Origin: an uncultured virus (IMG/VR IMGVR_UViG_3300044644_001243)
Taxonomy: Duplodnaviria; Heunggongvirae; Uroviricota; Caudoviricetes
Strand: one strand, 5' to 3'
IMG/VR virus record: IMGVR_UViG_3300044644_001243
Location: 62,001-126,000 of that record
Length of the DNA stretch: 64,000 nucleotides
Part shown: positions 39,016 to 64,000 of the stretch, in pieces
Layout: each line of letters starts with the position of its first letter
Numbering within the stretch: position 1 is the stretch's first letter
Program-made: the position numbers and the translations under genes
Notes under the pieces: model-generated
What the model saw: only the letters and a program-made list of their open reading frames with translations
Databases searched by the model: none
What the model was told of the DNA's origin: nothing

Positions 39016-39159
39016 ATTAGCCGTTTTAAGCAACTTTCTATTAAAAGTAATATCTTTGTATACCTAACAACAAAAACACGTCTTAAAACTAATTAAAACG
39101 TGTTTTGTAATTAAAAATGTATAGGCAAAAAAAAAAGTACCTTTCGGTACTTTCTTTTG

Positions 39160-39744
39160 TTATAGTGTCAATCCTTGCATTTTAAATTCGCCTTGCTGAA
39201 AGATGAAAGTTTTATATTTGCTTTGCTTAAAGTCGCAAAGTTTTTTGATTTTGTTTTGTACGATTGTCAATTCTTTGCTTTTCGTTTCTTTGTATTCGAC
39301 TGCTTCCAAAACACGTTTTTTAACTACTAAACCAAACACATGAATTTCGTTTGTTTCGTTATGTACTTTAATACCTTTTGCAAGGTGCGTATAAGCCTCA
39401 ATTTGGGCTTGTGAACGTACTATTGTACTATCTTTTTCAGCCAATAATTTTGCTTTCGTTTCTGGGTTAGATAATCTTTTTTCAAGGCTTGAAAAAAGGT
39501 TATTGTAAGCCAAAGTAATTAAGTCGATAGAATAAGTTTTTTCCAACTTTTCAAAGATAGTAGTTTGATTTGCTTGTAATGAATTAAAATCATTCATTAA
39601 ACAATTTTCGTAACTAATACCACTAACGATAAGTTGTTTACTTAATTCGCCTTGTGCGTTTCTATATGTAGTACCTACAAAGGTTGTACCTTTGATTGTT
39701 TTACCTACTGCTACTACGTTGTTGTTTTGTGTTTGCGTTTTCAT
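39160..39744 (-). CDS. Hypothetical protein (early-type)
   Basis: 194 aa with own promoter (TTGCA...TAACTTTG) and terminator (aaagtacc-tttc-ggtacttt). Confidence 0.8.
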   Translation of the reverse strand: MKTQTQNNNVVAVGKTIKGTTFVGTTYRNAQGELSKQLIVSGISYENCLMNDFNSLQANQTTIFEKLEKTYSIDLITLAYNNLFSSLEKRLSNPETKAKLLAEKDSTIVRSQAQIEAYTHLAKGIKVHNETNEIHVFGLVVKKRVLEAVEYKETKSKELTIVQNKIKKLCDFKQSKYKTFIFQQGEFKMQGLTL

Positions 39745-39910
39745 AATTTAAAAGTTTTAATGATTAATAACTTTGACAAAGTTACACATTAAATTGACTA
39801 TTGCAACAAAAAATTAAAAATAATTCACTCAAAGTTATTAACAATAAAAAAAATTGAATTGTTAATAACTTTTGCTTGCATATTAAATTTATCCTTCCTA
39901 TATTTGTAGT

Positions 39911-39960
39911 GTACAATTAAGGTACGTGCCGTGGGAATGGAAGAGTAGACTCCAACCTGG
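39911..39960 (+). ncRNA. Repeated structured element copy 1 (putative sRNA)
   Basis: TATATTTG at 39899, then gtac..gtac GTG ccgt-GGGA-atgg AAGAGTAGACTCC. Confidence 0.6.
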
Positions 39961-40161
39961 GTTTTATTTTTTTAATATGCAAGTTTTTTTTTAAAAAAAG
40001 TTATTAACAATTTAGTGTTAATAACTTTGAAAAAAAAAAGTGAAAAAAGTTTTGGTTATTTAAAATTTATCCCTATCTTTGTATTGTTCAATTGAGGATA
40101 TGATATGTACTTCGGTTGGGCGTTAGTTCTTTTTTTATTTATTTTTTAATACTTTTTTGTT

Positions 40162-40485
40162 ATGAAAACATTGGTAAACATTTACGCACAAGTTGAGGAA
40201 AACTATGCTGCTCACACGTGGGATGGTCAAGGGGAATGTCCACAACATTGGAAAAAGAAAGGTGGTAAAATCTTTCAAGTCAACCTTAATGTTGATTACC
40301 TTATGTATGACGAGGAACGCTCAATAAACGCTTTCAAACGTCTGCTACAAGACGAGTCTAACGAGGGGTATCGGTATACGTATACCGAACACGAAATCGT
40401 GTGGCACGAACCTATCGTCTTGAATGACGACAAGTTCTTGGAATACGTGCACGCACAAGCACGTGACGTTGAAGTTGAGTACTAA
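40162..40485 (+). CDS. Hypothetical protein
   Basis: 107 aa; TTTG...TATCTTTG promoter upstream. Confidence 0.75.
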   Translation: MKTLVNIYAQVEENYAAHTWDGQGECPQHWKKKGGKIFQVNLNVDYLMYDEERSINAFKRLLQDESNEGYRYTYTEHEIVWHEPIVLNDDKFLEYVHAQARDVEVEY

Positions 40486-40615
40486 ATGTACAGAAATCTG
40501 TCCATAGGGTTATACCTTATGGACTTTTTTCGTTTATATTAATTTTTTTTTGGTTAGGGTATTGTGGGAATCAAAATTAATGTTATCTTTGTAGGGTAAT
40601 TCAAAATCGTTCTTT

Positions 40616-40834
40616 ATGTTACGTGTAGTTGTAAGACAAGTTGGAAATTGTCTATTAGTTAGGGAAGGTGAAAAATTCTTTGCCGAACAAGTTGGAAATG
40701 ACGTTAGGGCTGACATACCAAAAGTTAAGTATGAACGTCTAAAGATTGAATCTGACGACTTATTTGAGTATCTAATACCTATGCTTATTAGAAACGAAAT
40801 TAGTCGTCCTATCTTTGAAAAATTGGGGGTTTAA
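40616..40834 (+). CDS. Hypothetical protein
   Basis: 72 aa; own promoter and terminator. Confidence 0.65.
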   Translation: MLRVVVRQVGNCLLVREGEKFFAEQVGNDVRADIPKVKYERLKIESDDLFEYLIPMLIRNEISRPIFEKLGV

Positions 40835-40862
40835 AAATCCCCTTTTTTATTTAGTATAGTTC

Positions 40863-40935
40863 GTTCACGTATGGACGTGTCGGAGTCTACTCTCTCACTT
40901 TGCTTAGCGACTTGTCTCGACTATCAATCATTGAC
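40863..40935 (-). ncRNA. Repeated structured element copy 2
   Basis: TATCTTTG, then gtc... gagaGAGTAGACTCC gacacgtccatacgtgaac on the minus strand. Confidence 0.6.
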
Positions 40936-41072
40936 AAAACAAAGATAGATAATAGAAATGATATATGCAAACAATTATTAAAAATAATTTTATTTTTTTT
41001 TTCGTTAAGGTATTGTGGGAATGAAAAAAAGTATTATCTTTGTAATAAGTTATTCATTTAAATTTTTTCCTT

Positions 41073-41492
41073 ATGTCACACATTATTTCATCTTCGGCTC
41101 TTTTTTCAGTTATCAAGGCTGAAAAAAACAATAGTGGTTCTGATTTCACTATTAAGTCTATTGCTACGGGCAAAGACTACACGTATGCTATCTCTCGTTC
41201 TAAATTTAAGGGCAATTGGTACACGCATATTAGCGTTGAACAAGAGTACCAAAAATTCGTTCGTTTGGGGTCTTATTTCAAGGGTAAGATTTACCAAAAA
41301 GGGCAAGTGGTTAACTCGCCATCGGCAACAGCAATTTGTTGGGTGCTTGAAAGGGTTGAACAAAGCAAGTTCGACTTGTTGGATGAGAAGGTTCAAGTTA
41401 TGCATACGGGCAATTGCATACGTTGTGGACGCACGTTAACGGACGCACAATCCATCGAACGTGGGTTAGGTCCGACTTGTGCAAGTCTTTAA
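41073..41492 (+). CDS. DUF6011-like zinc-finger protein
   Basis: CIRCGRTLTDAQSIERGLGPTC. Confidence 0.8.
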   Translation: MSHIISSSALFSVIKAEKNNSGSDFTIKSIATGKDYTYAISRSKFKGNWYTHISVEQEYQKFVRLGSYFKGKIYQKGQVVNSPSATAICWVLERVEQSKFDLLDEKVQVMHTGNCIRCGRTLTDAQSIERGLGPTCASL

Positions 41493-41549
41493 CCGACTGA
41501 AAAGGGTTCATTAAATGAACTCTTTTTTTTATTGGCATACGTTAAAAAA

Positions 41550-41616
41550 GTATAGACGTGTCGGAGTCTAGTCTTTTGCTTTGGTTAGCAACTTGTCTCG
41601 ATTATCAATCATTGAC
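41550..41616 (-). ncRNA. Repeated structured element copy 3
   Basis: GATATTTG, then gtc... aaaGACTAGACTCC gacacgtctatac on the minus strand; near-identical to copy 2. Confidence 0.6.
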
Positions 41617-41952
41617 AATACAAATATCGTAATTAGATTTTAGATATGCAAGAAAAAAGTGAATTATTTTTAAATTATTTTTTGCTCTTATTTTAATTCG
41701 TTTTAAGACGTTTTAAAGTTGTTTTGGTATTATGTATTGGTTTAGTATTTAAAGTTTATTACAAGCAACAATACAAGCAAAAAAAGAATAAGAATAGTAT
41801 AAAGATTAATGTTATAAATAAGATTAGATAGGAATAAAAAAAAATAAAAAAAGATTAAAAAATGTTTGGTTATTTAAAAATTATGTTTATCTTTGTATCG
41901 TCCAAATGAGGGACAAAAGTTCTTTTTCTTACTTATTTTTTTTCTTTTTGTT

Positions 41953-42213
41953 ATGGAAGCAAATTGTTTTCACGGAACTGATACGTATGGACGTTCAGTT
42001 CAAGTTGGTATACGTCAAGATGGCGTTGCATTCTTCAGAACATATCGTTATAACGGCTATGGTATGGGAATGACCAAATGGGAAATGTTGAACGATTACG
42101 TTCACCAACCATACAAAAGTTCGTCTGCCGTTTATGGCGAAAAGACTCACATCAAGTGGGGCTTTAACGAACTCACTGGGTATACCAACCCAAGAATGAG
42201 ACTACCAAAGTAG
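41953..42213 (+). CDS. Hypothetical protein
   Basis: Start revised to MEANCFHG, downstream of the TATCTTTG promoter. Confidence 0.7.
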   Translation: MEANCFHGTDTYGRSVQVGIRQDGVAFFRTYRYNGYGMGMTKWEMLNDYVHQPYKSSSAVYGEKTHIKWGFNELTGYTNPRMRLPK

Positions 42214-42368
42214 TCTCATTTTTTTTTGTCTTATAATTTACTTATTGTAAGTATTATTATTCAAACATTATATTTTTTATTTGATAACAACTAATTGATT
42301 AAATTAGGGGGTGTGGTGGCAACCAATGTACAGAAATATGTACATAGGTCGCACCTACCATTTAGTTA

Positions 42369-42665
42369 TTAATTTACATCAATTAAATTTCCGTCCCATT
42401 CAACATCATTCAGAAACCATTTACCTTTGGTTTGATTTATTTTTACGTTAGGTAAACCATTTAACCTTTCTTTTGTTGTTGCCGTTTCATACCCACAATT
42501 AGTAATTGATAAGGTTCTTTCGGGGTCGTTGTATTGATAAGCGATTGCGTTGCCAAATAGTTTTAGTATTGTTACGTTAGGCAAAACTTCTACACTTGTG
42601 TTACCATTTTTAAAAGTTTCAGCATTTAAAAACTTTTCGATTGCTTTTTCAGTAATTGTTCTCAT
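42369..42665 (-). CDS. Hypothetical protein
   Basis: 98 aa; TTKERLN motif. Confidence 0.75.
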   Translation of the reverse strand: MRTITEKAIEKFLNAETFKNGNTSVEVLPNVTILKLFGNAIAYQYNDPERTLSITNCGYETATTKERLNGLPNVKINQTKGKWFLNDVEWDGNLIDVN

Positions 42666-42748
42666 TGTGTTTATGTTTATTTGTTTATGTAAAGATAGTA
42701 AATATAAATGGTACTACCAAACGATAGTACCATTTATTTTAATTTATT

Positions 42749-43132
42749 TTATACGTGTAGTGAATATGCTATTATCATATAAACACTATCTTCGACTTCA
42801 TCTAAATTTAGATTTTCACCTATATAATATTCTTTACCTTTCCATTTTATACATTTGTGGTCGTCCATCATTAGTTCAACATAGTGGTCTGATTCATTTT
42901 CATCAACTTCAATACCATAAGTTTCGATAAACGAATTAACTTCACTATCTTTGACTAAATCATAGTCCAATGTATATTGATTGATATACTCAAAACAATC
43001 TTCAATAGTGTTGATTGGTGCGATTCTAAATTTATCGTCATTAGCGATTAAATTAACTTTGTCAATCAATTCTTGTTTAGAATTTAATGTTGCAAGTTCT
43101 TTGTTTTTCTTTGTGTCGATTAAAGTATACAT
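42749..43132 (-). CDS. Hypothetical protein
   Basis: 127 aa with own promoter. Confidence 0.7.
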   Translation of the reverse strand: MYTLIDTKKNKELATLNSKQELIDKVNLIANDDKFRIAPINTIEDCFEYINQYTLDYDLVKDSEVNSFIETYGIEVDENESDHYVELMMDDHKCIKWKGKEYYIGENLNLDEVEDSVYMIIAYSLHV

Positions 43133-43194
43133 AGTATTAATTATTTGTTTCCGTAAAGATAGTGAATAGTTTTGACTTATGCAAGTTTATTTGT

Positions 43195-43548
43195 TTATAT
43201 TTCGTTATCATTATCTACCAAACATTTGTCCATTAATTCAATTAAATTAATTCTATCCTCTATTGATAAATCCCACATTTTAATTGAATGTTTTGTAAAT
43301 TTTCCGTCTGCCGTTACTACTTCAATATCGTAGTAATTACCAACTTTAAGAACTTTTAGTGGGTGTACATCAAATACGTTGCCCGTTTCTTTATCTCTAA
43401 TTTCTAGGTAATTATCGGGTGTGTCATTTTCTAAATCTTTTTCATCAAAGATAACAAATTCTTTTTGTTGATATAACATTTCCTCGAATGTCATTTGGAT
43501 ATGTGTTTTTAAAACATCTATATCTCTTTTTAAAGCACTTATTCTCAT
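43195..43548 (-). CDS. Hypothetical protein (paralog of the next ORF)
   Basis: IFDEKDLENDTPDNYLEIRDKETGNVFDVHPLKV. Confidence 0.8.
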   Translation of the reverse strand: MRISALKRDIDVLKTHIQMTFEEMLYQQKEFVIFDEKDLENDTPDNYLEIRDKETGNVFDVHPLKVLKVGNYYDIEVVTADGKFTKHSIKMWDLSIEDRINLIELMDKCLVDNDNEI

Positions 43549-43626
43549 TTTAGTTTATTTTAATTGTTTATTTATACAACAAAGATATGGATAAGTTTTC
43601 ACTTATCCAAATCTTTTTATAGTTTT

Positions 43627-43950
43627 TTACAAACTATTTTCCATTAATTCTATTAGGGTAATTTTGTCTTGTGTGCTTGATAAATCTTGCAACTTAATCA
43701 AGTGTCTTACAAAACTTCCGTCTGCTTCAACTACAAGTATTCCATTTTGGGTTACTTTTAGTGGGTGGACATCAAACACGTTTCCCGTAATATCATTACG
43801 CATTTCAAGGTAATCATCGGGTGTGTCGTGTTCTAAATCACATTCATCAAAGATTACTATTTCTTCTTGTTTCTCCAACAACTCATTAAAGTAGTGGTAA
43901 ACTTGTTTTTCTAATTGTTCTAAATCTTTGTTTAAGTTTTTGCTTGACAT
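43627..43950 (-). CDS. Hypothetical protein (paralog of the previous ORF)
   Basis: IFDECDLEHDTPDDYLEMRNDITGNVFDVHPLKV; start revised to MSSK. Confidence 0.8.
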   Translation of the reverse strand: MSSKNLNKDLEQLEKQVYHYFNELLEKQEEIVIFDECDLEHDTPDDYLEMRNDITGNVFDVHPLKVTQNGILVVEADGSFVRHLIKLQDLSSTQDKITLIELMENSL

Positions 43951-44010
43951 AATATAAGTTTTAAATTGTTTGTTTAACAAAGATAAGCATAATGTTTTGA
44001 TTATGCAAAT

Positions 44011-44250
44011 TTATTTTGCACAATCTTTACATAAATCTACATCATCACCAAATACCATTTCATCACGTGTAAACCCACCACCACAATTTTGACAACAAAA
44101 TGTAGGTTCTTCATCCAACCATTCAACTACTCTTTTGACTACATCAACTAAATCACTTTCATCGTCAAATTCTGCGTGTTCATTATTGTCTGCGTGTTGC
44201 TCAATAATGATTTTAAATACTCTCTCTAAATTTTCTAATGTGCATTCCAT
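44011..44250 (-). CDS. Zn-finger hypothetical protein
   Basis: CQNC...CKDC; start revised to MECT. Confidence 0.7.
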   Translation of the reverse strand: MECTLENLERVFKIIIEQHADNNEHAEFDDESDLVDVVKRVVEWLDEEPTFCCQNCGGGFTRDEMVFGDDVDLCKDCAK

Positions 44251-44389
44251 AATATATTGTTTTAAAGTTATACTACAAATATAAGCATTGAATCTTGTTG
44301 CCACAACATACTATAATTAGCATTTAATTTTTTTTAAATTATTTTCATTTTTGTGTTGGATATATCAAAATTATTTCTATCTTTGTTAT

Positions 44390-44436
44390 GTCAGTAAGAC
44401 GTGCTACGAGAGTAGAAGAGTAGACTCCGTTGCGTG
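44390..44436 (+). ncRNA. Repeated structured element copy 4
   Basis: TATCTTTG at 44378; gtc..gac GTG ctac-GAGA-gtag AAGAGTAGACTCC. Confidence 0.6.
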
Positions 44437-44587
44437 TATATGTTTCGTGTGTGCGTTACTGCATAAAAAAAGTGGCAACCATTCGGCAACCACTTCCTCG
44501 TTATAATCAAAACACTAAACAAACACAATTTAGTTTTTTGCGTTGATTGAAACCCCATAATAGATTTCAATCAACATTATTTCTTTA

Positions 44588-44734
44588 TCATACATAATCC
44601 TCTTGCATTAACTTGTTAATATAATTCTTTTTATGTTTATCTTTGCGTTGAAACGCTTTTTTAGACTTGTGAACACTACTCTTTAATGCTTGTTGCATTT
44701 CGTGCTGGGTTAAGGTTATTTCTTTAAATTTCAT
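44588..44734 (-). CDS. Small basic hypothetical protein, 48 aa
   Basis: Read manually: MKFKEITLTQHEMQQALKSSVHKSKKAFQRKDKHKK... Confidence 0.6.
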   Translation of the reverse strand: MKFKEITLTQHEMQQALKSSVHKSKKAFQRKDKHKKNYINKLMQEDYV

Positions 44735-44819
44735 TTCTTTTATCTAAATAATTACACACTAATTTGATTACTGCTAATCCTCCTAATAAGATTCCTAAAT
44801 AAACGATTTTGCCTAACAT
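44724..44819 (-). CDS. Small membrane peptide, 31 aa
   Basis: MLGKIVYLGILLGGLAVIKLVCNYLDKRNEI directly after a promoter cassette. Confidence 0.5.
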   Translation of the reverse strand: MLGKIVYLGILLGGLAVIKLVCNYLDKRNEI

Positions 44820-44896
44820 AACTTTTTGTTTTAATTTGTTTGTGAAACAAAGATAAGGATAATCTTTCGATTATCCAAATCTTTTTTTAAAATGTT

Positions 44897-45517
44897 TTAG
44901 TTATTTTCTAATAACTTTACAACCCCATTAGGTAATTCGTTATCAGTACCATCTAAAATCAACACTACATCAGTTCTCATAAAGTCTTTGATATAAACAT
45001 AGTTGCCATTAACTCTGCCAAACTTTTGTGCGTTTTGTGGTGTACTTTCCCCATTGTCGCCATCTTGGTATTTCTCTCTGACAAATACTCTATTATCAAC
45101 AACAACTATTTCACCAACATCACCAACTTCCTCACCACTATATTCTACCACTCCATTAAGGACATAACCATTCGGTGCTAGAATTTTGTGAATAAGATAA
45201 ACTAACCATTCAGTATAGTTATAAAACTTCTCACCACAATCCCACTCAATACCCATTCGGTCATCGCTAGGTGTCCATTGATTCCAAAGACTTGGTTGAG
45301 TGCTTGGTGGCTCATTAAAATCTACTACATTGTCTTCGTGGTCTTGTCCAAAACTTCCACCACCAAATACGTAAAACTCACCTTGTACTCCAAACACTTC
45401 ATCAGTGTTTCTTTCCATTCTGCGTGTTTCGTTGAACAATTTTAAGTATTGTTCCATCTTTGGACTTAACTCCTTGTTAAGTTCAAATCTACCACTAAAA
45501 TCAGTTGTGTAACCCAT
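44897..45517 (-). CDS. Hypothetical protein
   Basis: 206 aa; MGYTTDF...QPSLWNQW...EKFYNYTEWL. Confidence 0.8.
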   Translation of the reverse strand: MGYTTDFSGRFELNKELSPKMEQYLKLFNETRRMERNTDEVFGVQGEFYVFGGGSFGQDHEDNVVDFNEPPSTQPSLWNQWTPSDDRMGIEWDCGEKFYNYTEWLVYLIHKILAPNGYVLNGVVEYSGEEVGDVGEIVVVDNRVFVREKYQDGDNGESTPQNAQKFGRVNGNYVYIKDFMRTDVVLILDGTDNELPNGVVKLLENN

Positions 45518-45655
45518 TGTAATTTGTTTTATTGATTAATACCTTACAAAGATAAACATTCTTTTTTAATTTCCTACTATATTGTGAAAAATAAATAAAT
45601 TATTTTTTTTTACTTTTTTTGTTGCACAAGTCAATATTATTACTATCTTTGTTAT

Positions 45656-45717
45656 GTACGATTAAGGTACGTGCTGCGAGAGTAGAAGAGTAGACTCCAA
45701 CACGTCCATACGTGAAC
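45656..45717 (+). ncRNA. Repeated structured element copy 5
   Basis: TATCTTTG at 45644; ctgc-GAGA-gtag AAGAGTAGACTCC aacacgt-ccat-acgtgaac. Confidence 0.6.
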
Positions 45718-46186: not shown

Positions 46187-46264
46187 AATGTTTGTTTTTT
46201 AATTGATTTCTTTTATCAAAGGTAAGGAATTGTTTTTACAATTCCAAACCTTTTTTAACTTTTT

Positions 46265-54688: not shown

Positions 54689-54697
54689 AACGTTTGA

Positions 54698-56577: not shown

Positions 56578-57417
56578 TTATTTTTCTACTTTTTCTAATT
56601 CCTTTTGTATTGTTGCAACCAACTCAAAGTTTTCATTTGCCAACGCAATCTCTTTAAATCGTTCCAACACATTCCTTGCATAGCCACAATCCTCGGTTGG
56701 CATATAATCTCTATCGTATGCAATTTCAATCATTGAATTTGTAAACTTTGATAATTCCTCGTCTTCATCTACATCACAAAAATCATCACCTAAATAATAG
56801 TCTTCACCACCTTGAATATTAAGAGCCATTTCGTATGCTTCACGTGTGCCACCTTCGGGTACATTTTCTTCAATTTCAACTCCACCTACCAAAGTATAAG
56901 TTCCTACATTGTAACCAAAGTCTTCATCAGCATATTCAACTTCAATACGTGCTTCGGGATATTTTTCAGATAGTTTTAAAAATAAGTTGAAAGGTGTACT
57001 CCACGCAGTATTAAAACTTACACTCTCATTATCATCACTCCAATACACATCACTTGCGTTCCACTTTGTACCCCAATTACTAATTTGCCACCCATACCAA
57101 TCAGCATAACCAAATCGTTCAATAAAATCATCGTGCATTTCTTTTGTAATACCTCTCGATACTCCAAAACGTACTTCACTTTCCGTTAATTCACCTTTGG
57201 TAATACGTTCCTCTTGTATATCGTATTCCTCTTGTGTAATAATGCGACAAGGACTTGTTGTACCTACCAATTCAGTTGGTATTGGTGCAATTTGATTAAA
57301 ATCAAATTCTTTGTCTTCACCATTACTATATGGTGTTCCTTTTACTTCTTCTCTAATCTTTGCTAATAAAGTTTCATCAGCAATGATTCTTACGTTGTTT
57401 GTAATCCAGTTTGGCAT
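56578..57417 (-). CDS. DUF1281/YubB ferredoxin-like domain protein
   Basis: MPNW...DWYGWQISNWGTKWNA...FNTAWSTP. Confidence 0.8.
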   Translation of the reverse strand: MPNWITNNVRIIADETLLAKIREEVKGTPYSNGEDKEFDFNQIAPIPTELVGTTSPCRIITQEEYDIQEERITKGELTESEVRFGVSRGITKEMHDDFIERFGYADWYGWQISNWGTKWNASDVYWSDDNESVSFNTAWSTPFNLFLKLSEKYPEARIEVEYADEDFGYNVGTYTLVGGVEIEENVPEGGTREAYEMALNIQGGEDYYLGDDFCDVDEDEELSKFTNSMIEIAYDRDYMPTEDCGYARNVLERFKEIALANENFELVATIQKELEKVEK

Positions 57418-57480
57418 AACTATTTATTTTTATTGATTAATACACTACAAATATAATTACTATTTTTGTTAATTCCAAAT

Positions 57481-57693
57481 TTATAACATAGAAATTATAA
57501 CTTTTATAAAAGATTTTTTAAAACCTCTTTCTTTCAATTCTCTCCATACGTGGTCGTCATCTAATAACTCACACTCTGCTTGGATTCTACCATTAAAGTA
57601 AATGTCAATTACGTAACCATTCGGATTGTAATATACTTTTACTTTTGTTAACCCTTTTTCAATTTGTCCTAAATAAACTTTTTCTTCACTCAT
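57481..57693 (-). CDS. Hypothetical protein
   Basis: 70 aa after a promoter cassette. Confidence 0.65.
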   Translation of the reverse strand: MSEEKVYLGQIEKGLTKVKVYYNPNGYVIDIYFNGRIQAECELLDDDHVWRELKERGFKKSFIKVIISML

Positions 57694-57764
57694 AATGTTT
57701 TGTTTTAATGTTTATCAAAGATAAGCATAAGTTTTCACTTATGCAAATCTTTTTTAAAAATGTT

Positions 57765-58142
57765 TTATATTATTTTATATAAACCAAAATCAACACTACC
57801 AATTTGTTCATACTTTTGATTATCCACTACTTCACCATTTAACAACCAATTTGGTTGCACCCTTGGATTGTATTTAATTCTATGACAATAGGTATCAAGT
57901 TGTAAAAACTTATTTGTGTTAATCACAATTGATTCACACAATACCCACGCACACACAACTTTTTCACCCCCATTATAAATCTTTTCAGCGACTTTCTTAT
58001 GGTTGCCTAACTGACAATTCACCATCACCAATTGAGTGCTTGTAGGGTCATAATATTCAACTTCACCATTAGGGTATTGAACTTTCCATTTCATAAAGTT
58101 CTTACCTCTACCTAAATTGAATCTAACTTTAATTCGTTTCAT
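57765..58142 (-). CDS. Hypothetical protein
   Basis: 125 aa; VRFNLGRGKNFMKW...VCAWV...YNPR. Confidence 0.75.
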   Translation of the reverse strand: MKRIKVRFNLGRGKNFMKWKVQYPNGEVEYYDPTSTQLVMVNCQLGNHKKVAEKIYNGGEKVVCAWVLCESIVINTNKFLQLDTYCHRIKYNPRVQPNWLLNGEVVDNQKYEQIGSVDFGLYKII

Positions 58143-58276
58143 AATCGTTTGTTTAATTGTTCTCTACAAAGATAGTAATTATTTCCATTCCCACAACACT
58201 TTTATTAAAAAAAAATAAAATTATTTTTTTTGCTATTTTACTTGCATATGTCAATTATTATTGCAATCTTTGTATT

Positions 58277-58320
58277 GTCAAGTTAGACGTGCCGTGGGAA
58301 TGGAAGAGTAGACTCCAACG
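58277..58320 (+). ncRNA. Repeated structured element copy 10
   Basis: AATCTTTG at 58265; ccgt-GGGA-atgg AAGAGTAGACTCC. Confidence 0.6.
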
Positions 58321-58356
58321 TGCCTTTTATTTTTTTACACGCACAAAAAAAGTGGG

Positions 58357-58683
58357 TCACCCCACTTTGCGATAGTTTAATGGATAACCCCTATCAGTCC
58401 AACAAACGTTACCATAGGTAAATTCGTTTATATCTGCGTTCTCAACCATTGTAAGATAATATTGGTATGCTATATCCATAGACTCTTTTTTAGTCGTTTG
58501 TGGGGGATAAAACGCAAACATATTTTCTTTTGGGTGTCCATAAAATACTATGTAGATTTTATTCCCTCTGCTACCATATTGGTGTGCGTCTGCAATACTC
58601 TTAAACTTTGTAAAAGATACTGCTTTGTTATTCACTATTAACCCTAATAGTTCTAACTTGTTTCTTACTTCACTTGGTGTCAT
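58357..58683 (-). CDS. Hypothetical protein
   Basis: 108 aa. Confidence 0.7.
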   Translation of the reverse strand: MTPSEVRNKLELLGLIVNNKAVSFTKFKSIADAHQYGSRGNKIYIVFYGHPKENMFAFYPPQTTKKESMDIAYQYYLTMVENADINEFTYGNVCWTDRGYPLNYRKVG

Positions 58684-58686
58684 AAT

Positions 58687-58950
58687 CTAAATTCCTTTTT
58701 CAATTACAAAATAACCATATTTGTATGGTTGTGTACCATAGTCAATGTCGCCCATATCAACGATGTCTTCTCCGTCCTCGGTTTCGTGTACCGATACAAC
58801 TTGATACTCTTCCGTATCAAATTCTTTCACCCTATCAATTTCTTCGGGGTGTAAAAAAAGATAGTCACCATATTCTACACTATCCTCTTCTGCCACTACC
58901 AATCCACCACCATACTTTGCGAAAAATTCTGTCTTTGTCATTGTTGCCAT
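58687..58950 (-). CDS. Acidic hypothetical protein
   Basis: Start revised to MATM. Confidence 0.7.
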   Translation of the reverse strand: MATMTKTEFFAKYGGGLVVAEEDSVEYGDYLFLHPEEIDRVKEFDTEEYQVVSVHETEDGEDIVDMGDIDYGTQPYKYGYFVIEKGI

Positions 58951-59025
58951 AACTCTTATTGTTTTTGTTTGTGAAACAAAGATAAGCATAAGTTTTCACT
59001 TATGCAAATCTTTTTTTAATTTATT

Positions 59026-59334
59026 TTACCAACGAATATAAACATAATAACTCGGACTGCAAATAACAACTTTGAATCCTTTTTCTTCAAGGTAAGGTTT
59101 CATTTTGGTTTCAACCAATCTTTGTAGATTGCTATCATCAAATAATTCACCAACTACTTTGTTGTGTGTATCATCATTTTGATAACTACCAATGGACAAT
59201 TCATTTTTTTTCCATTTTTCTGCCACGTTAACCATTCTTGGAAAAAGTACTTCATTGTATACTCTGTCAAACTTTGGTCTATCAATATCTTTAACTTCAG
59301 ATATTAAACTTTTTAATTTTGCGATGTCATTCAT
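59026..59334 (-). CDS. Hypothetical protein
   Basis: Start revised to MNDIA. Confidence 0.7.
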   Translation of the reverse strand: MNDIAKLKSLISEVKDIDRPKFDRVYNEVLFPRMVNVAEKWKKNELSIGSYQNDDTHNKVVGELFDDSNLQRLVETKMKPYLEEKGFKVVICSPSYYVYIRW

Positions 59335-59415
59335 AATATTAGTTTTAATTTGTTTGTGAAACAAAGATAAGGATAATATTTCGATTATCCAAATCTTTTG
59401 TTATTTTATTTTAAA

Positions 59416-59832
59416 TTATTTTGGTGCAACACAATTATACAATAAGTTCTCCACAATCAATTCCCACGTTGCCGTTTTGTCTTCCTCTGCTTCACTATCG
59501 TAGTATTTTAATACTTCGTTAATCTCTGCAATACTCGGATTCATTTTTAAATCCATAGCAACCCTTACAACGTCTTCAACACTAATTTGTTTTGTTAAGA
59601 TTTCTTCTTCGTCAAACTCACTATTATTTTGGCAACCCTCATACCATAAATCGGGACAATCAGATAAATCCATTACTGACTTGCAACACGCACATTCAAT
59701 TTCAGAATCCATTCTATCGTGTAATAATACACTACCACAATTTCCACACGTTACAATATTAATACTTGCTACTGCATTAACTCTGTTTTGTAACTCAATT
59801 TGTTTTTCTGCTAATTCTCTTTTAGTTTTCAT
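59416..59832 (-). CDS. Zn-finger hypothetical protein
   Basis: CGNCG...CACC...CPDL. Confidence 0.75.
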   Translation of the reverse strand: MKTKRELAEKQIELQNRVNAVASINIVTCGNCGSVLLHDRMDSEIECACCKSVMDLSDCPDLWYEGCQNNSEFDEEEILTKQISVEDVVRVAMDLKMNPSIAEINEVLKYYDSEAEEDKTATWELIVENLLYNCVAPK

Positions 59833-59915
59833 AATGTTTGTTTTTGATTACAATACAAATATAGTAAAAATAAAATAACCTACCAAATATTTGATAGGTT
59901 ATTTTTAAATTATTT

Positions 59916-60353
59916 TTAATTTCTTCTTCTTGGAAAAAACCCTTGGTCGGGGTCACCTAAACTACAAGTCTCCAAATCTTCATACGTACCTTTGAATGAA
60001 GCTGAAACTAATTTTAAAGGGTATTTAAGTTTTAATATTTGTTCATCGTAACAACCAATGTCAATACCTTTACTTCTATTGTAATCAGTATGTTCATCAA
60101 TTTGTTTCATCAATGGATATTCACCCTCAAATTTCAAATCCTCTGCATTGTTCCAAAATGCTAATAGTTCATACATATCGTATTTAGGTTCACCACTAAT
60201 TTCTTTTGTTCCTAGTTCACCATAATCTTGATAGTAATCTTTGATAAACCCACCACCAAATTCTTTTGGTATTAAGAATTTAAAAGGTGTACCATAAGCA
60301 ACATTTTCAGTGTTCGTTAATTCATCTGCTTTGTTCCAACTAAAACTTCCCAT
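59916..60353 (-). CDS. Hypothetical protein
   Basis: 145 aa; MGSFSW...YELLAFWN...YPLKLV...DPDQG. Confidence 0.75.
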   Translation of the reverse strand: MGSFSWNKADELTNTENVAYGTPFKFLIPKEFGGGFIKDYYQDYGELGTKEISGEPKYDMYELLAFWNNAEDLKFEGEYPLMKQIDEHTDYNRSKGIDIGCYDEQILKLKYPLKLVSASFKGTYEDLETCSLGDPDQGFFPRRRN

Positions 60354-60429
60354 AATCTTTATTTTTAATGTTTAACAAATATAAGAATAATAATCCAATC
60401 TACCAAATATAAATTGGATTATTATTAAA

Positions 60430-60624
60430 TTATTTGTTGTACTTATCTTTTAAGAAATTTTCCATACATTCGTATTCACCTTTGGTGTCAACATTGAATT
60501 TGCTTTTGTCATACTCATCATATAAACTTGGCAAATCATCCCATTGCTCGTCATAACAAGCGTCAGCAAATTCCTTGTCATAAAATTTGATAAGGTTGCT
60601 AAATAAATACATACTATAATCCAT
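60430..60624 (-). CDS. Hypothetical protein
   Basis: Start revised to MDYSM. Confidence 0.65.
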   Translation of the reverse strand: MDYSMYLFSNLIKFYDKEFADACYDEQWDDLPSLYDEYDKSKFNVDTKGEYECMENFLKDKYNK

Positions 60625-60714
60625 AGGTTCTAAAGTTTTAATTGGTTTGTTTAACAAATATAAGAATAAAGATTGGATAAACAATAACATTCATCCAATC
60701 TTTTTAATTTTATT

Positions 60715-61554
60715 TTAAACTAATTTACCTTGGTTACTCAAAATTCGTTTCTCTTCCAACAAATCTTTTGTATTACTTTCAGTACTACTCATTATTAGTT
60801 GCCTTAACATTTGGTCTTCCATACCAACTTCCTTTAAGATATACTGCATAGTTTCTCCGTCAACATCAATTACTTTTAACTTCGCAATAATGTCTTTTAC
60901 AATATTATGGTTATCATCTGAATAACATAAAAAAGTTGGTACACTTGGTAACTCAAAGTCTTCTTTAAACATATCTCTAAAATAGCCACCATTTTGTTGG
61001 TTATTTGCTTTTTCATCCAACCATTCAACTTTAACACAATTATCGTTACTTTCGTGTTCCGTTGTATAGTCTTCGGTTACTCTCGCTTTAGCACCACCAT
61101 TAACACTATAATATTGTCTTGTTTCTTTCCACTCAACAATACTATCTTTTGGTATTAATACCTTTGGTTCTTCCTTGGGTAATGTTGCAACATATTCTGC
61201 TACACTTCTAGGTTTAAATTTATCCTCTATTTCTTCTTTTGGTTCTTCGAATAAACCATACCAATTACACTCTATTGGTTCATTAATGGTTAAATCTAAT
61301 GCAATGTTAATATCAGTAACACTTCTTTGTAGTATCTCTACATTATCATACCCAATACTTTCTTCCAATTTAACTTGATTAGTAAATAGTATCTCGTGAC
61401 TATCAACATTAGTACGTTTAACACATTCAATACGTTTTTCAACTTCTGCTATCTTATCAGACAAATCTGTCAACGCCATATCAACTTCATCACCTATTTG
61501 ATACAAGTCCCAACGTTTTAAAGTTTCTACTAAATTGTTAAATTCATTTCTCAT
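60715..61554 (-). CDS. Hypothetical protein
   Basis: About 280 aa; start revised to MRNEF. Confidence 0.75.
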   Translation of the reverse strand: MRNEFNNLVETLKRWDLYQIGDEVDMALTDLSDKIAEVEKRIECVKRTNVDSHEILFTNQVKLEESIGYDNVEILQRSVTDINIALDLTINEPIECNWYGLFEEPKEEIEDKFKPRSVAEYVATLPKEEPKVLIPKDSIVEWKETRQYYSVNGGAKARVTEDYTTEHESNDNCVKVEWLDEKANNQQNGGYFRDMFKEDFELPSVPTFLCYSDDNHNIVKDIIAKLKVIDVDGETMQYILKEVGMEDQMLRQLIMSSTESNTKDLLEEKRILSNQGKLV

Positions 61555-61592
61555 AATATTTGTTTTTAATTGTTTCAACAAAGATAAATAAA

Positions 61593-61862
61593 CTATTTCA
61601 ATTTTCCAAATTTATTTTCAAATTTCTTACTTACCCAACTATAATTCCCACTTGCAAAAATTTCCATTATCTCATTATCAACATAATCACCCTCGGCAAT
61701 TAGATTCATAACCCTATTATGTTTTTTAGCAAATAATTTTTTATCTTTGTGGTCGCCCATTGGATAAAAATAAATGTGTGTACTTGTTTCTAATACCCTC
61801 TCGTATTTTATATCGTCAGTACTACGTAAACAACTTTTAACTATTTTCATAACATTAATCAT
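61593..61862 (-). CDS. Hypothetical protein
   Basis: 89 aa. Confidence 0.65.
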   Translation of the reverse strand: MINVMKIVKSCLRSTDDIKYERVLETSTHIYFYPMGDHKDKKLFAKKHNRVMNLIAEGDYVDNEIMEIFASGNYSWVSKKFENKFGKLK

Positions 61863-62085
61863 TAATATGTTCCCAACCCTCTAACTCTTCCAATTCCATA
61901 CCCATAGGTCTTAACCCATATGGTTCTGCGTCCAAATAGTAATCAAAGGTATAACCCAATGGTTCTATCTCACTCAATATCCTATCTAACTCAAAATAGG
62001 TGTTTCCACTATCCTCATCAAATGATTCCAATATTGCTTGTACTTCGTTTGGTATCAACTCTGGTGTTTCAAATAAATCTTTCAT
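61855..62085 (-). CDS. Hypothetical protein
   Basis: 76 aa; GYTFDYYLDAEPYGL. Confidence 0.7.
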   Translation of the reverse strand: MKDLFETPELIPNEVQAILESFDEDSGNTYFELDRILSEIEPLGYTFDYYLDAEPYGLRPMGMELEELEGWEHIND

Positions 62086-62145
62086 AACTTTTATTGTTTT
62101 GTTTAATCAAAGATAAGCATAAGTTTTCACTTATGCAAATCTTTT

Positions 62146-62685
62146 TTAATAATTCGTAACTAATTTTAATTGATAATCATAACTGAATTTTCCGTTGTTA
62201 TGTTCATCACAACATTTAGCACAAGCATAAGTCTTTCTAATCACTTTGTGTTTTGGTGTTTCTTTACCACAACTCTCACATAACAAAGTATATTTTGATT
62301 TAGGTAAATTAACACTATCACTACTAAAACATCTTTTAGCGTCACAACCAATTTGTTTTGCAATATGTTGCCAATTGTACCCATGACCTCTTCCGTCCCT
62401 TACACCATACACGTGAACACAAAATGCGTGTGCCAATTCGTGCAACATAGTGTCAGTAATCTTTGTGTCTATTTTATCTAAATTTTCATTACATAGTGGC
62501 ATAGATAAACCAATAGTTTTTTTACCATAACTACAGCAACCAAATCTACGTTTTGCACTATCAAACTTAAACGTATAACCTAATTGTTCACCACTCAATG
62601 TATAAACCCCATGGTACGTGTTAAACGTGAATTGTTTTGTCATTAATGTTTCTGCCATTAATCTTACGTCATTTAAATTTTTCAT
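62146..62685 (-). CDS. SprT-like zinc metalloprotease
   Basis: AKRRFGCC, TMLHELAH, GHG..W, C-terminal CxxC pairs. Confidence 0.85.
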   Translation of the reverse strand: MKNLNDVRLMAETLMTKQFTFNTYHGVYTLSGEQLGYTFKFDSAKRRFGCCSYGKKTIGLSMPLCNENLDKIDTKITDTMLHELAHAFCVHVYGVRDGRGHGYNWQHIAKQIGCDAKRCFSSDSVNLPKSKYTLLCESCGKETPKHKVIRKTYACAKCCDEHNNGKFSYDYQLKLVTNY

Positions 62686-62818
62686 TGTGTTTTGTTTTAT
62701 TGTTCCCTACAAAGATAAACATTATTTTTAATTCTGCAACTATTTTGTGAGAAAATAATTATTTTTTTTTATGCAACAAAAGTTTGTTTTTTAAATATAT
62801 TATCCCTACCTTTGTTTT

Positions 62819-62875
62819 GTTGGTGGTGATAACCGAAACGGGTCGAGGGAAATCTTGAAAGAGTAGACTCCAACC
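62819..62875 (+). ncRNA. Repeated structured element copy 11 (divergent)
   Basis: TACCTTTG at 62807; cgagg-GAAA-tcttg AAAGAGTAGACTCC. Confidence 0.55.
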
Positions 62876-62990
62876 TACCTTATATTTTTTTTACCATATA
62901 AGAAAAAAATTTGCAAAGGTACAAAATAAATTCGACCTTTGCAAATAAAGTTATTTACAAGGGGGTGTTGATAACCCCCTTGTAACTTTG

Positions 62991-63875
62991 TTAGTAATTT
63001 AAAGCAAATTCCAAACTTGCTTGGTTCATATTGTAACCCGTTCCTTGTAACAAAGTTTCAACTTTACCATTGTCACGTTTTGGTGCTGACAATTCGTGTG
63101 TAGTGTAATATGTAATTCCACTATGTAAACCCCACAACGTGTCACCTTTGCTATTCATTTCACGTTCAATAGCGTTGTATAAAGCATCCATTTTGTTTAT
63201 ACTACGTGTAGACTTATCTGACAAGTCTTTTACACTTGTATACACTTTGTCAAACCCTAATAAGTGTTTAACCATTTTGTGTGCCAAATCACGTGAAACT
63301 TGCGTACTTGCAAATTGATTGTAGATTTCAATTTGTCTTAATGATTCAGATAAAGCCGTTTCAATAAGGAAAGGAATTTCTTTGATTCTACGTTCCAAAC
63401 TTGCCGTATGACGAAATTTAGATTGTCCACTTTTGTAGAACTTAAAAAATTGGTTACTGCAACTCATAGTTAAATCACCAATACCTACCGATAGACCCGT
63501 ACTGCCGTCATTACTATCCACGATAGTAATATACTTCTTAATAGTGTCACCATTAACTTTGCCGTCACCATTGATAGCAAGTTGTAAAAACACTTTGCGT
63601 CCACCATTCAACGCACCACCTTTGGTAACTTGAATATCGTTTCCGAAAGGTTCAATTCCACGCATAACCAACTCAACAACCTCTTCGTTTTGAGATACCG
63701 TATAACCCTCTTTTACGGTGTTAATCACTTCATTCGTGCTTGAATTAATCAAACCGAAATACTCACTTGGTACATAGATACCATTAGAATTTAAAGCCAT
63801 CATAGGTGCTTTTTCAATTGTAAAATCTAATCCATTAGACTTTAAAATTTCTTGTACTTTTTCTTGTGTGTTCAT
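62991..63875 (-). CDS. DUF932 (LGT_TIGR03299-type) protein
   Basis: GLDFTIEK, YTVSQNEE, GGRKVFLQ, SNDGS, CSNQF, RHT, TLWGLHSGITYY. Confidence 0.85.
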   Translation of the reverse strand: MNTQEKVQEILKSNGLDFTIEKAPMMALNSNGIYVPSEYFGLINSSTNEVINTVKEGYTVSQNEEVVELVMRGIEPFGNDIQVTKGGALNGGRKVFLQLAINGDGKVNGDTIKKYITIVDSNDGSTGLSVGIGDLTMSCSNQFFKFYKSGQSKFRHTASLERRIKEIPFLIETALSESLRQIEIYNQFASTQVSRDLAHKMVKHLLGFDKVYTSVKDLSDKSTRSINKMDALYNAIEREMNSKGDTLWGLHSGITYYTTHELSAPKRDNGKVETLLQGTGYNMNQASLEFALNY

Positions 63876-64000
63876 CTTATTTGTTTTTTAGATTATTAAT
63901 ACATTACAAATGTAACGCTTTTTTTTTAATTTCCAAACTTTTTATATAAAATAATGAAAAAAAAATTATTTTTATTTTTAATCACTTTTTTCTTGCATAT

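What the first reader, a model, noticed from the sequence alone, without database searches (positions are those of the whole stretch)
39020..64000. Early region is purged of AGCT (and apparently GGCC) while the rest of the genome is not
Seen, by eye: AGCT is very common in 1-38 kb, but I found only one site in 39-64 kb (about 60000). GGCC occurs repeatedly before 38.6 kb and I saw none after it. CCWGG and GGWCC also look rare there. Inference: this segment may enter the cell first, or be exposed before an anti-restriction or DNA-modification function acts, analogous to the first-step-transfer DNA of T5. That would imply staged injection or a terminal repeat beginning near 39 kb.
Basis: partly seen in the sequence, partly recalled or inferred. 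Interest (0 to 1): 0.7.

Follow-up and report, generated by a model that had tools for sequence, protein, structure and literature searches.

The report
Restriction-site-free early-gene island in jumbo phage
A 28.6-kb block of small early genes in an uncultured T4-like giant lake phage has lost almost every copy of several four-letter restriction-enzyme targets that are common in the rest of its genome, which most likely marks the DNA that meets host enzymes before the phage can defend itself.

Summary
AGCT occurs 133 times before window position 39020 and once after it. CATG (127 against 6) behaves the same way. After codon and amino-acid correction, AGCT is 1 against 32.9 expected and CATG 7 against 40.1. 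GGCC is weak in this genome alone but supported by four related phage lineages. CCWGG and GGWCC are not significant.

A longer contig of the same phage shows a bounded island from window 37677 to 66297, just past the window end. It holds about 55 small genes, mostly of unknown function, behind Bacteroidota-type host promoters. The whole genome separately lacks GATC, CCGG, GCGC and CGCG.

Relatives purge different words (CATG+GTAC, or GGCC only). In all of them the purge starts at the same conserved non-coding landmark.

The best reading, at about 0.5, is early-exposed DNA under restriction selection, as in T5 first-step-transfer DNA, perhaps within a terminal repeat. Contig depth steps 1.4-1.8x at the far edge. 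Fixed ends are unproven, and the T4-type terminase argues against them.

The principle is already published for T5 and T7-like phages. This scan has noted similar islands in other lake phages.

The parts
37678..64000 (.). Island purged of AGCT, CATG, GGCC and CCGC/GCGG, and partly of CTAG, CCAG/CTGG and ACAG/CTGT. It continues to about 66297 in window-frame coordinates, beyond the window.
   Evidence: Changepoint fit 37677-66297, 8 AGCT+CATG sites inside against 6.0/kb outside. Codon-aware observed/expected by 6-kb bins: AGCT 3 against 62 across 38-68 kb, and close to expectation elsewhere. All-4-mer test.
38089..38766 (+). HNH / endonuclease VII-type endonuclease gene at the near edge. It still carries GGCC, GGWCC and CTAG but no AGCT or CATG.
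   Evidence: PHROGs phrog_3322 endonuclease E 3.5e-24, phrog_1035 endonuclease VII, phrog_3118 HNH. Site positions.
38767..39159 (.). Conserved non-coding landmark 'B0'. It has two tandem A/T-tract plus hairpin (terminator-like) repeats at 38768-38880, a C-rich stretch, and a run of G3-G6 blocks at 38952-39014. A + strand host-type promoter follows.
   Evidence: Sequence. A 60-nt window with at least 42% G (4-7 such windows per genome) lies 300-600 nt inside the start of the purged zone in 4 of 4 genomes: R1 38938, G002 65022, G003 288619, G004 81824 on the other strand. The element aligns across the four. The flanking genes are syntenic.
39160..39744 (-). Last gene of the leftward early block (194 aa, no family). 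It holds one of the 7 residual CATG sites (39339).
   Evidence: A homologue lies next to B0 in G003.
40162..42213 (+). Small rightward operon of four short genes (one with DUF6011) with its own host-type promoters. It converges on the leftward genes at 42.2-42.4 kb, where a TGTACA-N6-TGTACA motif sits (42327-42344).
   Evidence: (family D14).
42369..63875 (-). About 48 small leftward genes, most behind their own promoter. Few have family matches: Kyano_Gp96, DUF1281_C/Api92-like (56578-57417), L5 gp82-like, SprT-like (62146-62685), DUF932 (62991-63875).
   Evidence: ORF list. Pfam, PHROGs. PADLOC: 0 of 57 proteins matched.
44825..44899 (-). Example of the repeated promoter unit. Read on the - strand it is TTTG, then about 20 nt holding an inverted repeat, then TAtcTTTG. 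There are 20 or more copies in the island.
   Evidence: Repeat family D1, 20 copies. TTTG-N17-23-TAnnTTTG: 36 of the 82 matches in 206 kb lie in the 24 kb of 40-64 kb. [quoted passage not shown]
60000..60003 (.). The only AGCT in the island.

Best explanation
The island is the phage's host-RNA-polymerase-driven early-gene module. It is kept free of a set of short restriction-type words because, for a time after infection, this stretch alone is exposed to sequence-specific double-strand DNA nucleases of the host. During that time the phage's countermeasures, presumably encoded among the island's unknown genes, are not yet working.

The most likely reason for exposure of this region only is that it is the first DNA in the cell. 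On this view the genome has a fixed leading end at the conserved landmark B0 (window about 38.8-39.0 kb). The roughly 28-kb island is transferred and expressed first, as with T5 first-step-transfer DNA. The island may be present at both genome ends as a long terminal repeat.

Words that no countermeasure covers (GATC, CCGG, GCGC, CGCG) are purged from the whole genome.

Shown: the depletion, its edges, its word precision and strand symmetry, its maintenance, its coincidence with host-type promoters, and its conservation of place with change of words among relatives.

Inferred: restriction enzymes as the selecting agent, early expression, the order of entry, and the terminal repeat.
For: 1. Size and specificity.
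- AGCT 1 against 32.9 and CATG 7 against 40.1 after codon correction.
- AGCT matches expectation in every 6-kb bin of 206 kb except 38-68 kb.
- Of 136 four-letter classes, 12 have z below -4 in the island, and 6 of those 12 are palindromes, against 16 palindromes among the 136.
- One-letter neighbours of AGCT and CATG are normal or enriched.

2. The signal is at the level of double-stranded DNA.
- Non-palindromic words fall on both strands: ACAG 13 against 54 and CTGT 2 against 24; GCGG 0 against 13 and CCGC 0 against 3.7.
- Intergenic DNA is purged too.

3. Selection is ongoing.
- There are 1,076 and 1,237 one-step precursors of AGCT and CATG in the island. About 36-41 new sites per lineage would be expected at 10% change.
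- Yet the closest distinct relative (72-83% nt identity) has 0 CATG and 3 AGCT in 13.3 kb of island, then 22 CATG in the next 7.5 kb, at the same far edge.

4. The cause is positional and not a matter of gene history.
- G004 purges CATG (5 against 39.3) and GTAC (11 against 37.3) but not AGCT.
- GGCC-free zones: G002 2 against 41.2, G004 0 against 26.0, G003 0 against 7.4, this phage 1 against 8.8.
- All zones start beside the same syntenic genes and the same G-run element.
- In G004 and G002 the GGCC zone runs 53-56 kb from that common start, further than the CATG zone. That is a one-sided, nested pattern.

5. Early character: 36 of 82 host-type promoter matches fall in 12% of the contig.

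6. Copy number.
- In 4 of 4 runs laid, the contig on the island side of the far edge has 1.42-1.8x the depth of the flank contigs.
- In the deepest run, depth is flat at 48-54 up to window about 67.1 kb and then 86.7.
- Three runs show no contig break at the step.

7. Precedent.
- T5/BF23 are restricted only through sites in the FST region (PMC10644984, passages; bioRxiv 10.1101/866236, abstract and passages).
- The same holds for the leading region of T7-like Murciavirus (PMC12455610, abstract and Discussion).

8. Link to restriction-modification: the only relative with GCGC sites (74) is the only one with a C5 cytosine methyltransferase gene.
Against: - The large terminase is closest to T4 gp17 among solved structures (E 2e-21), and capsid, portal and protease are T4-type. 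By established knowledge T4 packages by the headful with permuted ends. The Murciavirus paper states that leading-region avoidance should not apply to headful phages.
- No contig of this phage ends at B0. 3 of 3 further viral contigs read through it, and the complete relative G003 closes on a 127-nt assembly overlap.
- The end of the record at 66170 lies beside a 21-25-nt repeat and need not be a physical end.
- Depth comes from contigs only, one value per contig. Sharing of the island among co-occurring strains cannot be excluded.
- Nearly all island genes are transcribed towards B0, so T7-style polymerase-driven entry from B0 does not fit.
- No known anti-restriction gene, T5 A1/A2/dmp homologue or DNA methyltransferase was found in the 206 kb held. 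About 40% of the genome is missing.
- In this genome alone GGCC is weak (0 against 4.7), and the extension of its gap beyond 66 kb is not significant (0 against 2.3).
Confidence: 0.5

Rival explanations
1. No staged entry. The genome is headful-packaged and permuted like T4, and the whole DNA enters at once. Only the early-transcribed zone is then accessible to nucleases, because the rest is shielded until protection is in place. The shield could be co-injected or host DNA-coating proteins, condensation, or a compartment. B0 would then be a transcription boundary and not a genome end.
For: - T4-type terminase, capsid and portal.
- B0 carries tandem terminator-like hairpins and separates the promoter-dense block from the conserved flank.
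- The purged zones track promoter density in G002, G003 and G004.
- All contigs read through B0.
Against: - No such shield is known for T4-like phages (my recollection), and no candidate gene was identified here.
- It does not explain the 1.4-1.8x depth step at the far edge.
- In G004 the GGCC-free zone (26.6-82.2 kb) is far wider than the promoter cluster.
Confidence: 0.18
2. Staged entry as in the main reading, but the nucleases avoided are the phage's own. Island-encoded early enzymes shred host DNA at AGCT, CATG, GGCC and similar words while only the island is in the cell. The island must therefore lack those words, and the later-arriving DNA need not.
For: - Same positional evidence as the main reading.
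- The sets of words differ between lineages whose island gene content also differs.
- More than 45 island proteins have no family match, and restriction endonucleases are hard to recognise by sequence.
- T5 degrades host DNA during first-step transfer, and Davison proposes a restriction-like A1 activity (bioRxiv 10.1101/866236, passages).
Against: - No nuclease fold or family was detected inside the island. 0 of 57 proteins matched PADLOC. The only endonuclease hit is the HNH gene at the edge.
- It requires many specificities in one phage.
- The co-occurrence of a C5 methyltransferase and GCGC sites in G003 fits host restriction-modification more simply.
Confidence: 0.12
3. History or composition. 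The island is a mobile or fast-evolving accessory region whose word usage reflects another origin, relaxed constraint, or a regional mutation bias. It would not reflect present selection on this region.
For: - Island genes are small, poorly conserved and rearranged among relatives.
- Codon usage differs from the rest: GCT 0.56 to 0.24, CAT 0.74 to 0.40.
- ACGT is about 2x enriched in the island.
Against: - The purge is uniform over 53 ORFs and the intergenic DNA, with edges sharp to 1-2 kb.
- It is exact to the word, with neighbouring words normal.
- It is maintained against the expected re-creation of sites.
- It starts at the same landmark in four lineages that purge different words.
- G+C is the same inside and outside, 0.302 against 0.303.
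- The codon shifts are those the avoided words would cause.
Confidence: 0.07

Closest known systems
First-step-transfer (pre-early) DNA in the ~10-kb terminal repeat of phage T5 / BF23 (Tequintavirus)
   Same: - A discrete block of about 8% of the genome: 28.6 kb of an estimated 340-360 kb here, 7.9-8.3% in T5.
- The block holds small host-promoter-driven genes of mostly unknown function.
- Restriction sites are absent from the block but tolerated elsewhere.
- A long repeat-rich non-coding stretch lies at the inner edge. Here that is the 990-nt gap at 65324-66313, the largest gap in 206 kb.
- There is a possible two-fold copy number.
T5 facts come from PMC10644984 and bioRxiv 10.1101/866236 (passages read).
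   Different: - No homologue of A1, A2 or dmp was found.
- There is no cluster of DnaA boxes at either edge.
- The virion and terminase genes are T4-type and not T5-type.
- Fixed ends, the terminal repeat and two-step transfer are not shown.
- Many four-letter words are purged, not a few six-letter sites.
- The genome is also completely free of four other words.
Leading-region restriction-motif avoidance in T7-like phages (Murciavirus, Autographiviridae; PMC12455610)
   Same: Restriction-modification selection acts on a sub-genomic scale. The motif matters only in the variable early region, which also carries anti-defence genes. Related phages differ in which motifs the region holds.
   Different: - That case is experimental, concerns one Type I motif, and involves a short genome with known fixed ends and transcription-driven entry.
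- Here the genes point towards the proposed leading end, the words are Type II-like four-letter words, and entry is untested.
Genome-wide avoidance of short palindromes in phages (recalled: Sharp 1986; Rocha et al. 2001; Rusinov et al. 2018)
   Same: Complete loss of GATC, CCGG and CGCG, and in most relatives GCGC, from 122-362 kb of DNA in four related genomes.
   Different: The finding is a second, regional tier on top of the genome-wide one.
Host-takeover module in the terminal redundancy of SPO1-like phages and long terminal repeats of Herelleviridae (recalled, not checked here)
   Same: Many small early genes, each behind a strong host-type promoter, packed in one block.
   Different: There is no sequence relationship. 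I did not check whether those repeats are depleted of restriction sites.

Membership tests
T5-type first-step-transfer region | Restriction sites absent from the block while present and tolerated in the rest of the genome | tested here: met
   AGCT 1 and CATG 7 in 28.6 kb against 508 and 555 in the other 177 kb. Codon-aware tests.
T5-type first-step-transfer region | The block lies in a long direct terminal repeat of a genome with fixed ends | tested here: inconclusive
   Contig depth is 1.42-1.8x on the island side of the far edge in 4 of 4 runs. Contigs read through both edges.
T5-type first-step-transfer region | Two-step DNA transfer with an injection stop signal | not testable with these tools
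   This needs infection experiments. Only a 990-nt conserved non-coding gap at the far edge is seen.
T5-type first-step-transfer region | Pre-early genes A1, A2 and dmp | tested here: not met
   No such family among 53 (Pfam) or 57 (PHROGs) island and edge proteins. The block is analogous, not homologous.
Leading-region avoidance as in T7-like phages | Early genes transcribed away from the entering end, so that the polymerase pulls DNA in | tested here: not met
   With B0 as the leading end, all but about 6 island genes point towards it. The feature would be met only if the far edge led.
Leading-region avoidance as in T7-like phages | A known early anti-restriction gene (Ocr, ArdA or similar) in the region | tested here: not met
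   No match in Pfam, PHROGs or PADLOC. Most proteins have no family, so an unknown one is possible.
T4-like phage with headful packaging | Gp23-type capsid, Gp20-type portal, prohead protease and gp17-type large terminase | tested here: met
   Pfam Gp23 4.3e-72, Portal_T4 1.2e-71, Peptidase_S77, Terminase_6N. T4 gp17 is the best solved match, E 2e-21. The best cultured capsid match has only 37-42% identity.
T4-like phage with headful packaging | Circularly permuted, terminally redundant virion DNA | not testable with these tools
   This needs raw reads or virion DNA. The relative G003 closes on a 127-nt overlap, which fits either a permuted genome or a collapsed repeat.

The most novel reading that the evidence does not exclude
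These T4-like giant phages do package by the headful and inject permuted DNA, yet restriction acts only on the early-transcribed zone. Something unknown would then shield the remaining 90% or more of the incoming genome from nucleases until early genes have acted. The conserved G-run landmark at B0 would mark the edge of the unshielded zone. That would be a new way to obtain sub-genomic restriction selection without staged injection.
Probability: 0.15. Interest if true: 0.85.

Novelty: new member of a known kind. Interest (0 to 1): 0.6.

Why it matters
Restriction selection focused on the first-exposed DNA is experimentally established only for T5-like and T7-like coliphage relatives.

In this case the same signature appears at very large effect size, AGCT about 80-fold below the flank density. 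It occurs in an uncultured family of giant (about 350 kb) T4-like lake phages that probably infect Bacteroidota. Related lineages purge different words from one conserved starting point.

If the reading holds, three things follow:
- It predicts fixed ends and staged or shielded entry in a T4-like lineage, where neither is expected.
- It points to about 55 unknown early genes as a place to look for anti-restriction functions.
- It shows that word-depletion maps can reveal the order of entry and early regions from metagenomic sequence alone.

The two-tier pattern also separates enzymes the phage can neutralise (words purged in the island only) from those it cannot (words purged genome-wide).

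Tried and rejected
- Contig ends as termini. 3 of 8 related loci are cut 1.2-3.2 kb upstream of the DUF932 gene, and the window's record ends at 66170. The ends do not align to one position. The record's end sits by a 21-25-nt inverted repeat that also explains the 'loose end' at L110:17480. I rejected this as evidence.\n- No RNA holder was listed among 22 runs, so there is no expression data. All runs were Logan contigs, so read starts could not be seen. The GGCC, CCGC and CAGG gaps reach 76-82 kb, but expectations there are too low (GGCC 0 against 2.3). I kept this only for G004 and G002.\n- DnaA boxes as in the T5 stop-signal region: no cluster at either edge.\n- DNA methyltransferases that might protect the rest of the genome. 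PF01555 and PF02086 matched in 0 of 4 records. PF00145 matched only in G003.\n- PADLOC: 0 of 57 proteins matched.\n- Rfam: one sub-threshold MicX hit. No tRNA genes.\n- Cultured relatives. There is no close one. I fetched the first 50 kb of Flavobacterium phage immuto. It is a different phage, with family A polymerase and DpdA genes, and I did not follow it.\n- A flank protein (PcfJ-like) found only the same phage.\n- A degenerate pattern for the B0 element returned 120 stretches, mostly chance hits. Neighbours of AGCT and CATG are not depleted here.\n- mRNA-level causes were rejected because both strands are depleted alike.\n- Literature. Five full-text searches found the T5/BF23 and Murciavirus cases. 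None concerned T4-like, giant or Bacteroidota phages.

Full report
**What the DNA is.** The window is positions 62001-126000 of a 128,170-bp IMG/VR virus record rated 38% complete. It encodes a T4-type major capsid protein, portal, prohead protease and large terminase. G+C is about 30%. No cultured phage is close. The capsid protein reaches only 37-42% identity to Flavobacterium phage immuto, a Microcystis phage and uncultured huge phages.

A 205,931-bp contig (G001) is the same phage, with 366 mismatches over 128 kb, and reads on past the end of the record. Two more contigs from other samples are 99.99-100% identical over 20 kb. A relative, G003, is complete at 362,102 bp and closes on a 127-nt assembly overlap. 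I use 'window-frame' coordinates throughout, so values above 64000 lie beyond the window on G001.

**The observation.**
- AGCT occurs 133 times before 39020 and once after, at 60000.
- GGCC occurs 19 times before and 0 after.

CATG (127 against 6) and CTAG (87 against 14) behave likewise. ACGT, GTAC and TGCA do not.

I shuffled synonymous codons among the 56 ORFs beyond 39.0 kb, 300 times, which keeps the proteins and the region's own codon usage. The results:
- AGCT 1 against 32.9 +/- 4.7.
- CATG 7 against 40.1 +/- 4.6.
- CTAG 11 against 31.1.
- GGCC 0 against 4.7.
- CCWGG 0 against 1.5.
- GGWCC 1 against 4.0.

GGCC is weak in this genome, and CCWGG and GGWCC fail.

Expected counts per gene, drawn from the rest-of-genome codon usage, match observed AGCT in every 6-kb bin of the 206 kb except 38-68 kb, where the total is 3 against 62. 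A two-rate fit on AGCT+CATG gives an island at 37677-66297, with 8 sites inside against 6.0 per kb outside and an ln likelihood ratio of 128. The island is bounded. CATG resumes at 66297 and AGCT at 67214.

**A second, genome-wide tier.** GATC, CCGG, GCGC and CGCG are absent from the whole record. They are also absent from G001 and G002. G004 has none of GATC or CCGG and one each of CGCG and GCGC. G003 lacks GATC, CCGG and CGCG but has 74 GCGC. G003 is the only one of the four records with a C5 cytosine methyltransferase gene. CAGG/CCTG is about ten-fold low everywhere, 44 against 461.

**What kind of signal it is.** Of 136 four-letter classes tested with codon shuffles, 12 have z below -4 in the island, and 6 of those are palindromes. 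The island-specific ones are:
- AGCT and CATG.
- CCGC/GCGG, 0 against 16.1.
- CTAG, 11 against 30.
- CCAG/CTGG, 10 against 31.
- ACAG/CTGT, 15 against 77.5.

Non-palindromic words fall on both strands although nearly all genes lie on one strand, and the 7.85 kb of intergenic DNA has no AGCT, CATG or GGCC. One-letter neighbours of AGCT and CATG are normal or enriched. G+C is equal inside and outside. This points to recognition of exact words in double-stranded DNA, as by restriction enzymes. It does not point to codon usage, mRNA features or a mutation bias. From memory, these words are the targets of AluI, NlaIII/FatI, HaeIII, AciI and BfaI-type enzymes. I did not check REBASE.

**What the island holds.** It holds about 55 small ORFs. 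All but about six are on the - strand, and most have no family match. The exceptions include DUF932, an SprT-like protein and a DUF1281_C/Api92-like protein.

Nearly every gene has its own copy of a repeated unit which, on the coding strand, reads TTTG, about 20 nt with an inverted repeat, then TAtcTTTG. The -7 box TAnnTTTG is the one conserved in Flavobacterium and Bacteroides (PMC7641319, passages read). Of the 82 full-motif matches in 206 kb, 36 lie in the 24 kb of 40-64 kb. That the block is early, and that the host is a member of Bacteroidota, are inferences from these promoters.

**Relatives.** The closest distinct relative (locus L090, 72-83% nt identity where alignable) has 0 CATG and 3 AGCT in 13.3 kb of island, then 22 CATG in 7.5 kb. 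The switch falls at the homologous far edge. The island has more than 1,000 one-step precursors of each word, so drift would have made tens of new sites at that divergence. The purge is therefore actively maintained.

- G004, a third lineage, purges CATG (5 against 39.3) and GTAC (11 against 37.3) over 60-82.7 kb, its promoter cluster, but not AGCT.
- GGCC is missing from the early zone in every lineage: 1 against 8.8 here, 2 against 41.2 in G002, 0 against 26.0 in G004, 0 against 7.4 in G003.
- 7 of 8 related loci have no GGCC at all. The eighth has six, all in its last 4.5 kb.
- In G004 and G002 the GGCC-free zone is 53-56 kb, longer than the CATG zone, and both share one end.

That shared end is syntenic with the near edge here, next to homologues of the 35.2-37.1 kb genes. 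In all four genomes it carries the same non-coding element: tandem A/T-tract hairpins, a C-rich stretch and a run of G blocks. This landmark (B0, window 38767-39159) is the common origin of the purged zones.

**Mechanism.** A cut anywhere kills a phage genome, so selection confined to one region needs exposure confined to that region. The established cases are T5/BF23 and T7-like Murciavirus. In T5/BF23, sites matter only in the first-step-transfer DNA of the terminal repeat (PMC10644984, passages; bioRxiv 10.1101/866236, abstract and passages). In Murciavirus, a Type I motif matters only in the first-injected region (PMC12455610, abstract and Discussion).

The island resembles the T5 case in several ways:
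- Its share of the genome is about 8%.
- Its content is small genes behind host-type promoters.
- It has sharp edges.
- A long conserved non-coding gap lies at the inner edge (65324-66313, the largest gap in 206 kb, 73% identical to L090).

The one-sided nesting of zones from B0 fits polar entry from B0.

**The terminal-repeat hint.** Only contigs were available. In 4 of 4 runs the contig covering the island side of the far edge has 1.42-1.8x the depth of the flank contigs. In the deepest run, depth is 48-54 for more than 6 kb and then 86.7 from window about 67.1 kb inward. The other three runs have no contig break at the step, which suits a change in copy number better than a second strain joining. 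Solving for a two-fold step puts it at 65.6-66.0 kb in all four runs. A 1.7-fold step at 67.1 kb fits about as well. This is a hint and not a demonstration, and the near edge could not be examined.

**Against the staged-entry reading.**
- The terminase is T4 gp17-like, and T4 packages by the headful. The Murciavirus authors note that leading-region avoidance should not apply to such phages.
- All contigs read through B0.
- Island genes point towards B0.
- No A1/A2/dmp, Ocr/Ard-type or methyltransferase gene was found in the 206 kb held.

I therefore give staged or first entry about 0.5. A shielded-genome alternative without staged entry gets 0.18. Avoidance of the phage's own early nucleases gets 0.12. 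History or composition gets 0.07.

**Novelty.** The principle is known. The case is new for T4-like giant phages, and I found no such report in five full-text searches. Earlier notes of this scan describe similar restriction-site-free early islands in other uncultured lake phages. I did not test those. They agree in kind, and they suggest the phenomenon is widespread in freshwater phages.

Noticed in passing
whole record; also G001, G002, G003, G004: GATC, CCGG, GCGC and CGCG are entirely absent from 128-233 kb of DNA. GATC alone would be expected about 300 times in G001 coding DNA. G003 tolerates 74 GCGC and is the only record with a C5 cytosine methyltransferase gene (G003:316718-317614).
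   Followed up: partly
G001 coding DNA outside the island: CAGG/CCTG is about ten-fold under-represented genome-wide (44 against 461). CCAG/CTGG is strongly over-represented outside the island (999 against 637, z +22). Neither is explained.
   Followed up: no
window 39915-39985, 44390-44475, 45660-45745, 47018-47100, 48863-48945, 49849-49935, 53794-53880, 58278-58348, 62833-62903; one more at window-frame about 65.5 kb: A repeated + strand unit, antisense to the island genes. It has a host-type promoter, then a conserved core of about 50 nt (ACGTGC...GAAGAGTAGACTCC), then in some copies a T-run. The predicted small stem-loops have 4 pairs with compensatory changes. No Rfam family matches. It is a candidate small-RNA family.
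   Followed up: partly
window 43557-62159 (20 copies, e.g. 44825-44899): Island promoters carry a short inverted repeat, e.g. GGATAATC-GAAA-GATTATCC, between the -33 and -7 boxes. It could be an operator, or a terminator overlapping the next promoter.
   Followed up: no
window 38952-39014 and homologous sites G002:65022, G003:288619, G004:81824: A conserved run of G3-G8 blocks, of G-quadruplex-like spacing, in otherwise 30% G+C genomes. It is preceded by a C-rich stretch and tandem A/T-tract hairpins. It lies at the start of the purged zone in 4 of 4 lineages. Its function is unknown; it could be a terminus, packaging site, origin or insulator.
   Followed up: partly
window 42327-42344; 50380-50400 (inverted, partial); window-frame 66144 and 66619: The motif TGTACAGAAAT(A/C)TGTACA occurs only at the convergence point of the island's two gene blocks, at one internal gap, and twice at the far edge. 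It looks like a protein-binding site.
   Followed up: no
G001, window-frame about 108-125 kb (L108): A cluster of NAD-related genes: NAMPT, ribose-phosphate pyrophosphokinase, two Nudix proteins, NADAR, Macro and Sir2. Elsewhere on the arm are two sigma factors, SmpB, an RNase R/II-type nuclease, DHFR and dCMP deaminase.
   Followed up: no
G001, window-frame 69254-74159 (+): Four large genes of 479, 331, 331 and 479 aa with no family match. They look like two pairs of paralogues, and public-run contigs break repeatedly there.
   Followed up: no
own record 1-32 kb (window-frame -62 to -30 kb): GTAC density varies strongly, 45-56 per 8 kb in some bins against about 10 in others. The high bins are in the region of Laminin_G_3 repeat proteins and large structural genes.
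   Followed up: no
window 38-66 kb: ACGT is about two-fold enriched in island coding DNA (93 against 44 expected). Codon usage shifts towards ACG (Thr) and CGT (Arg). This is possibly a by-product of avoiding the purged words.
   Followed up: no
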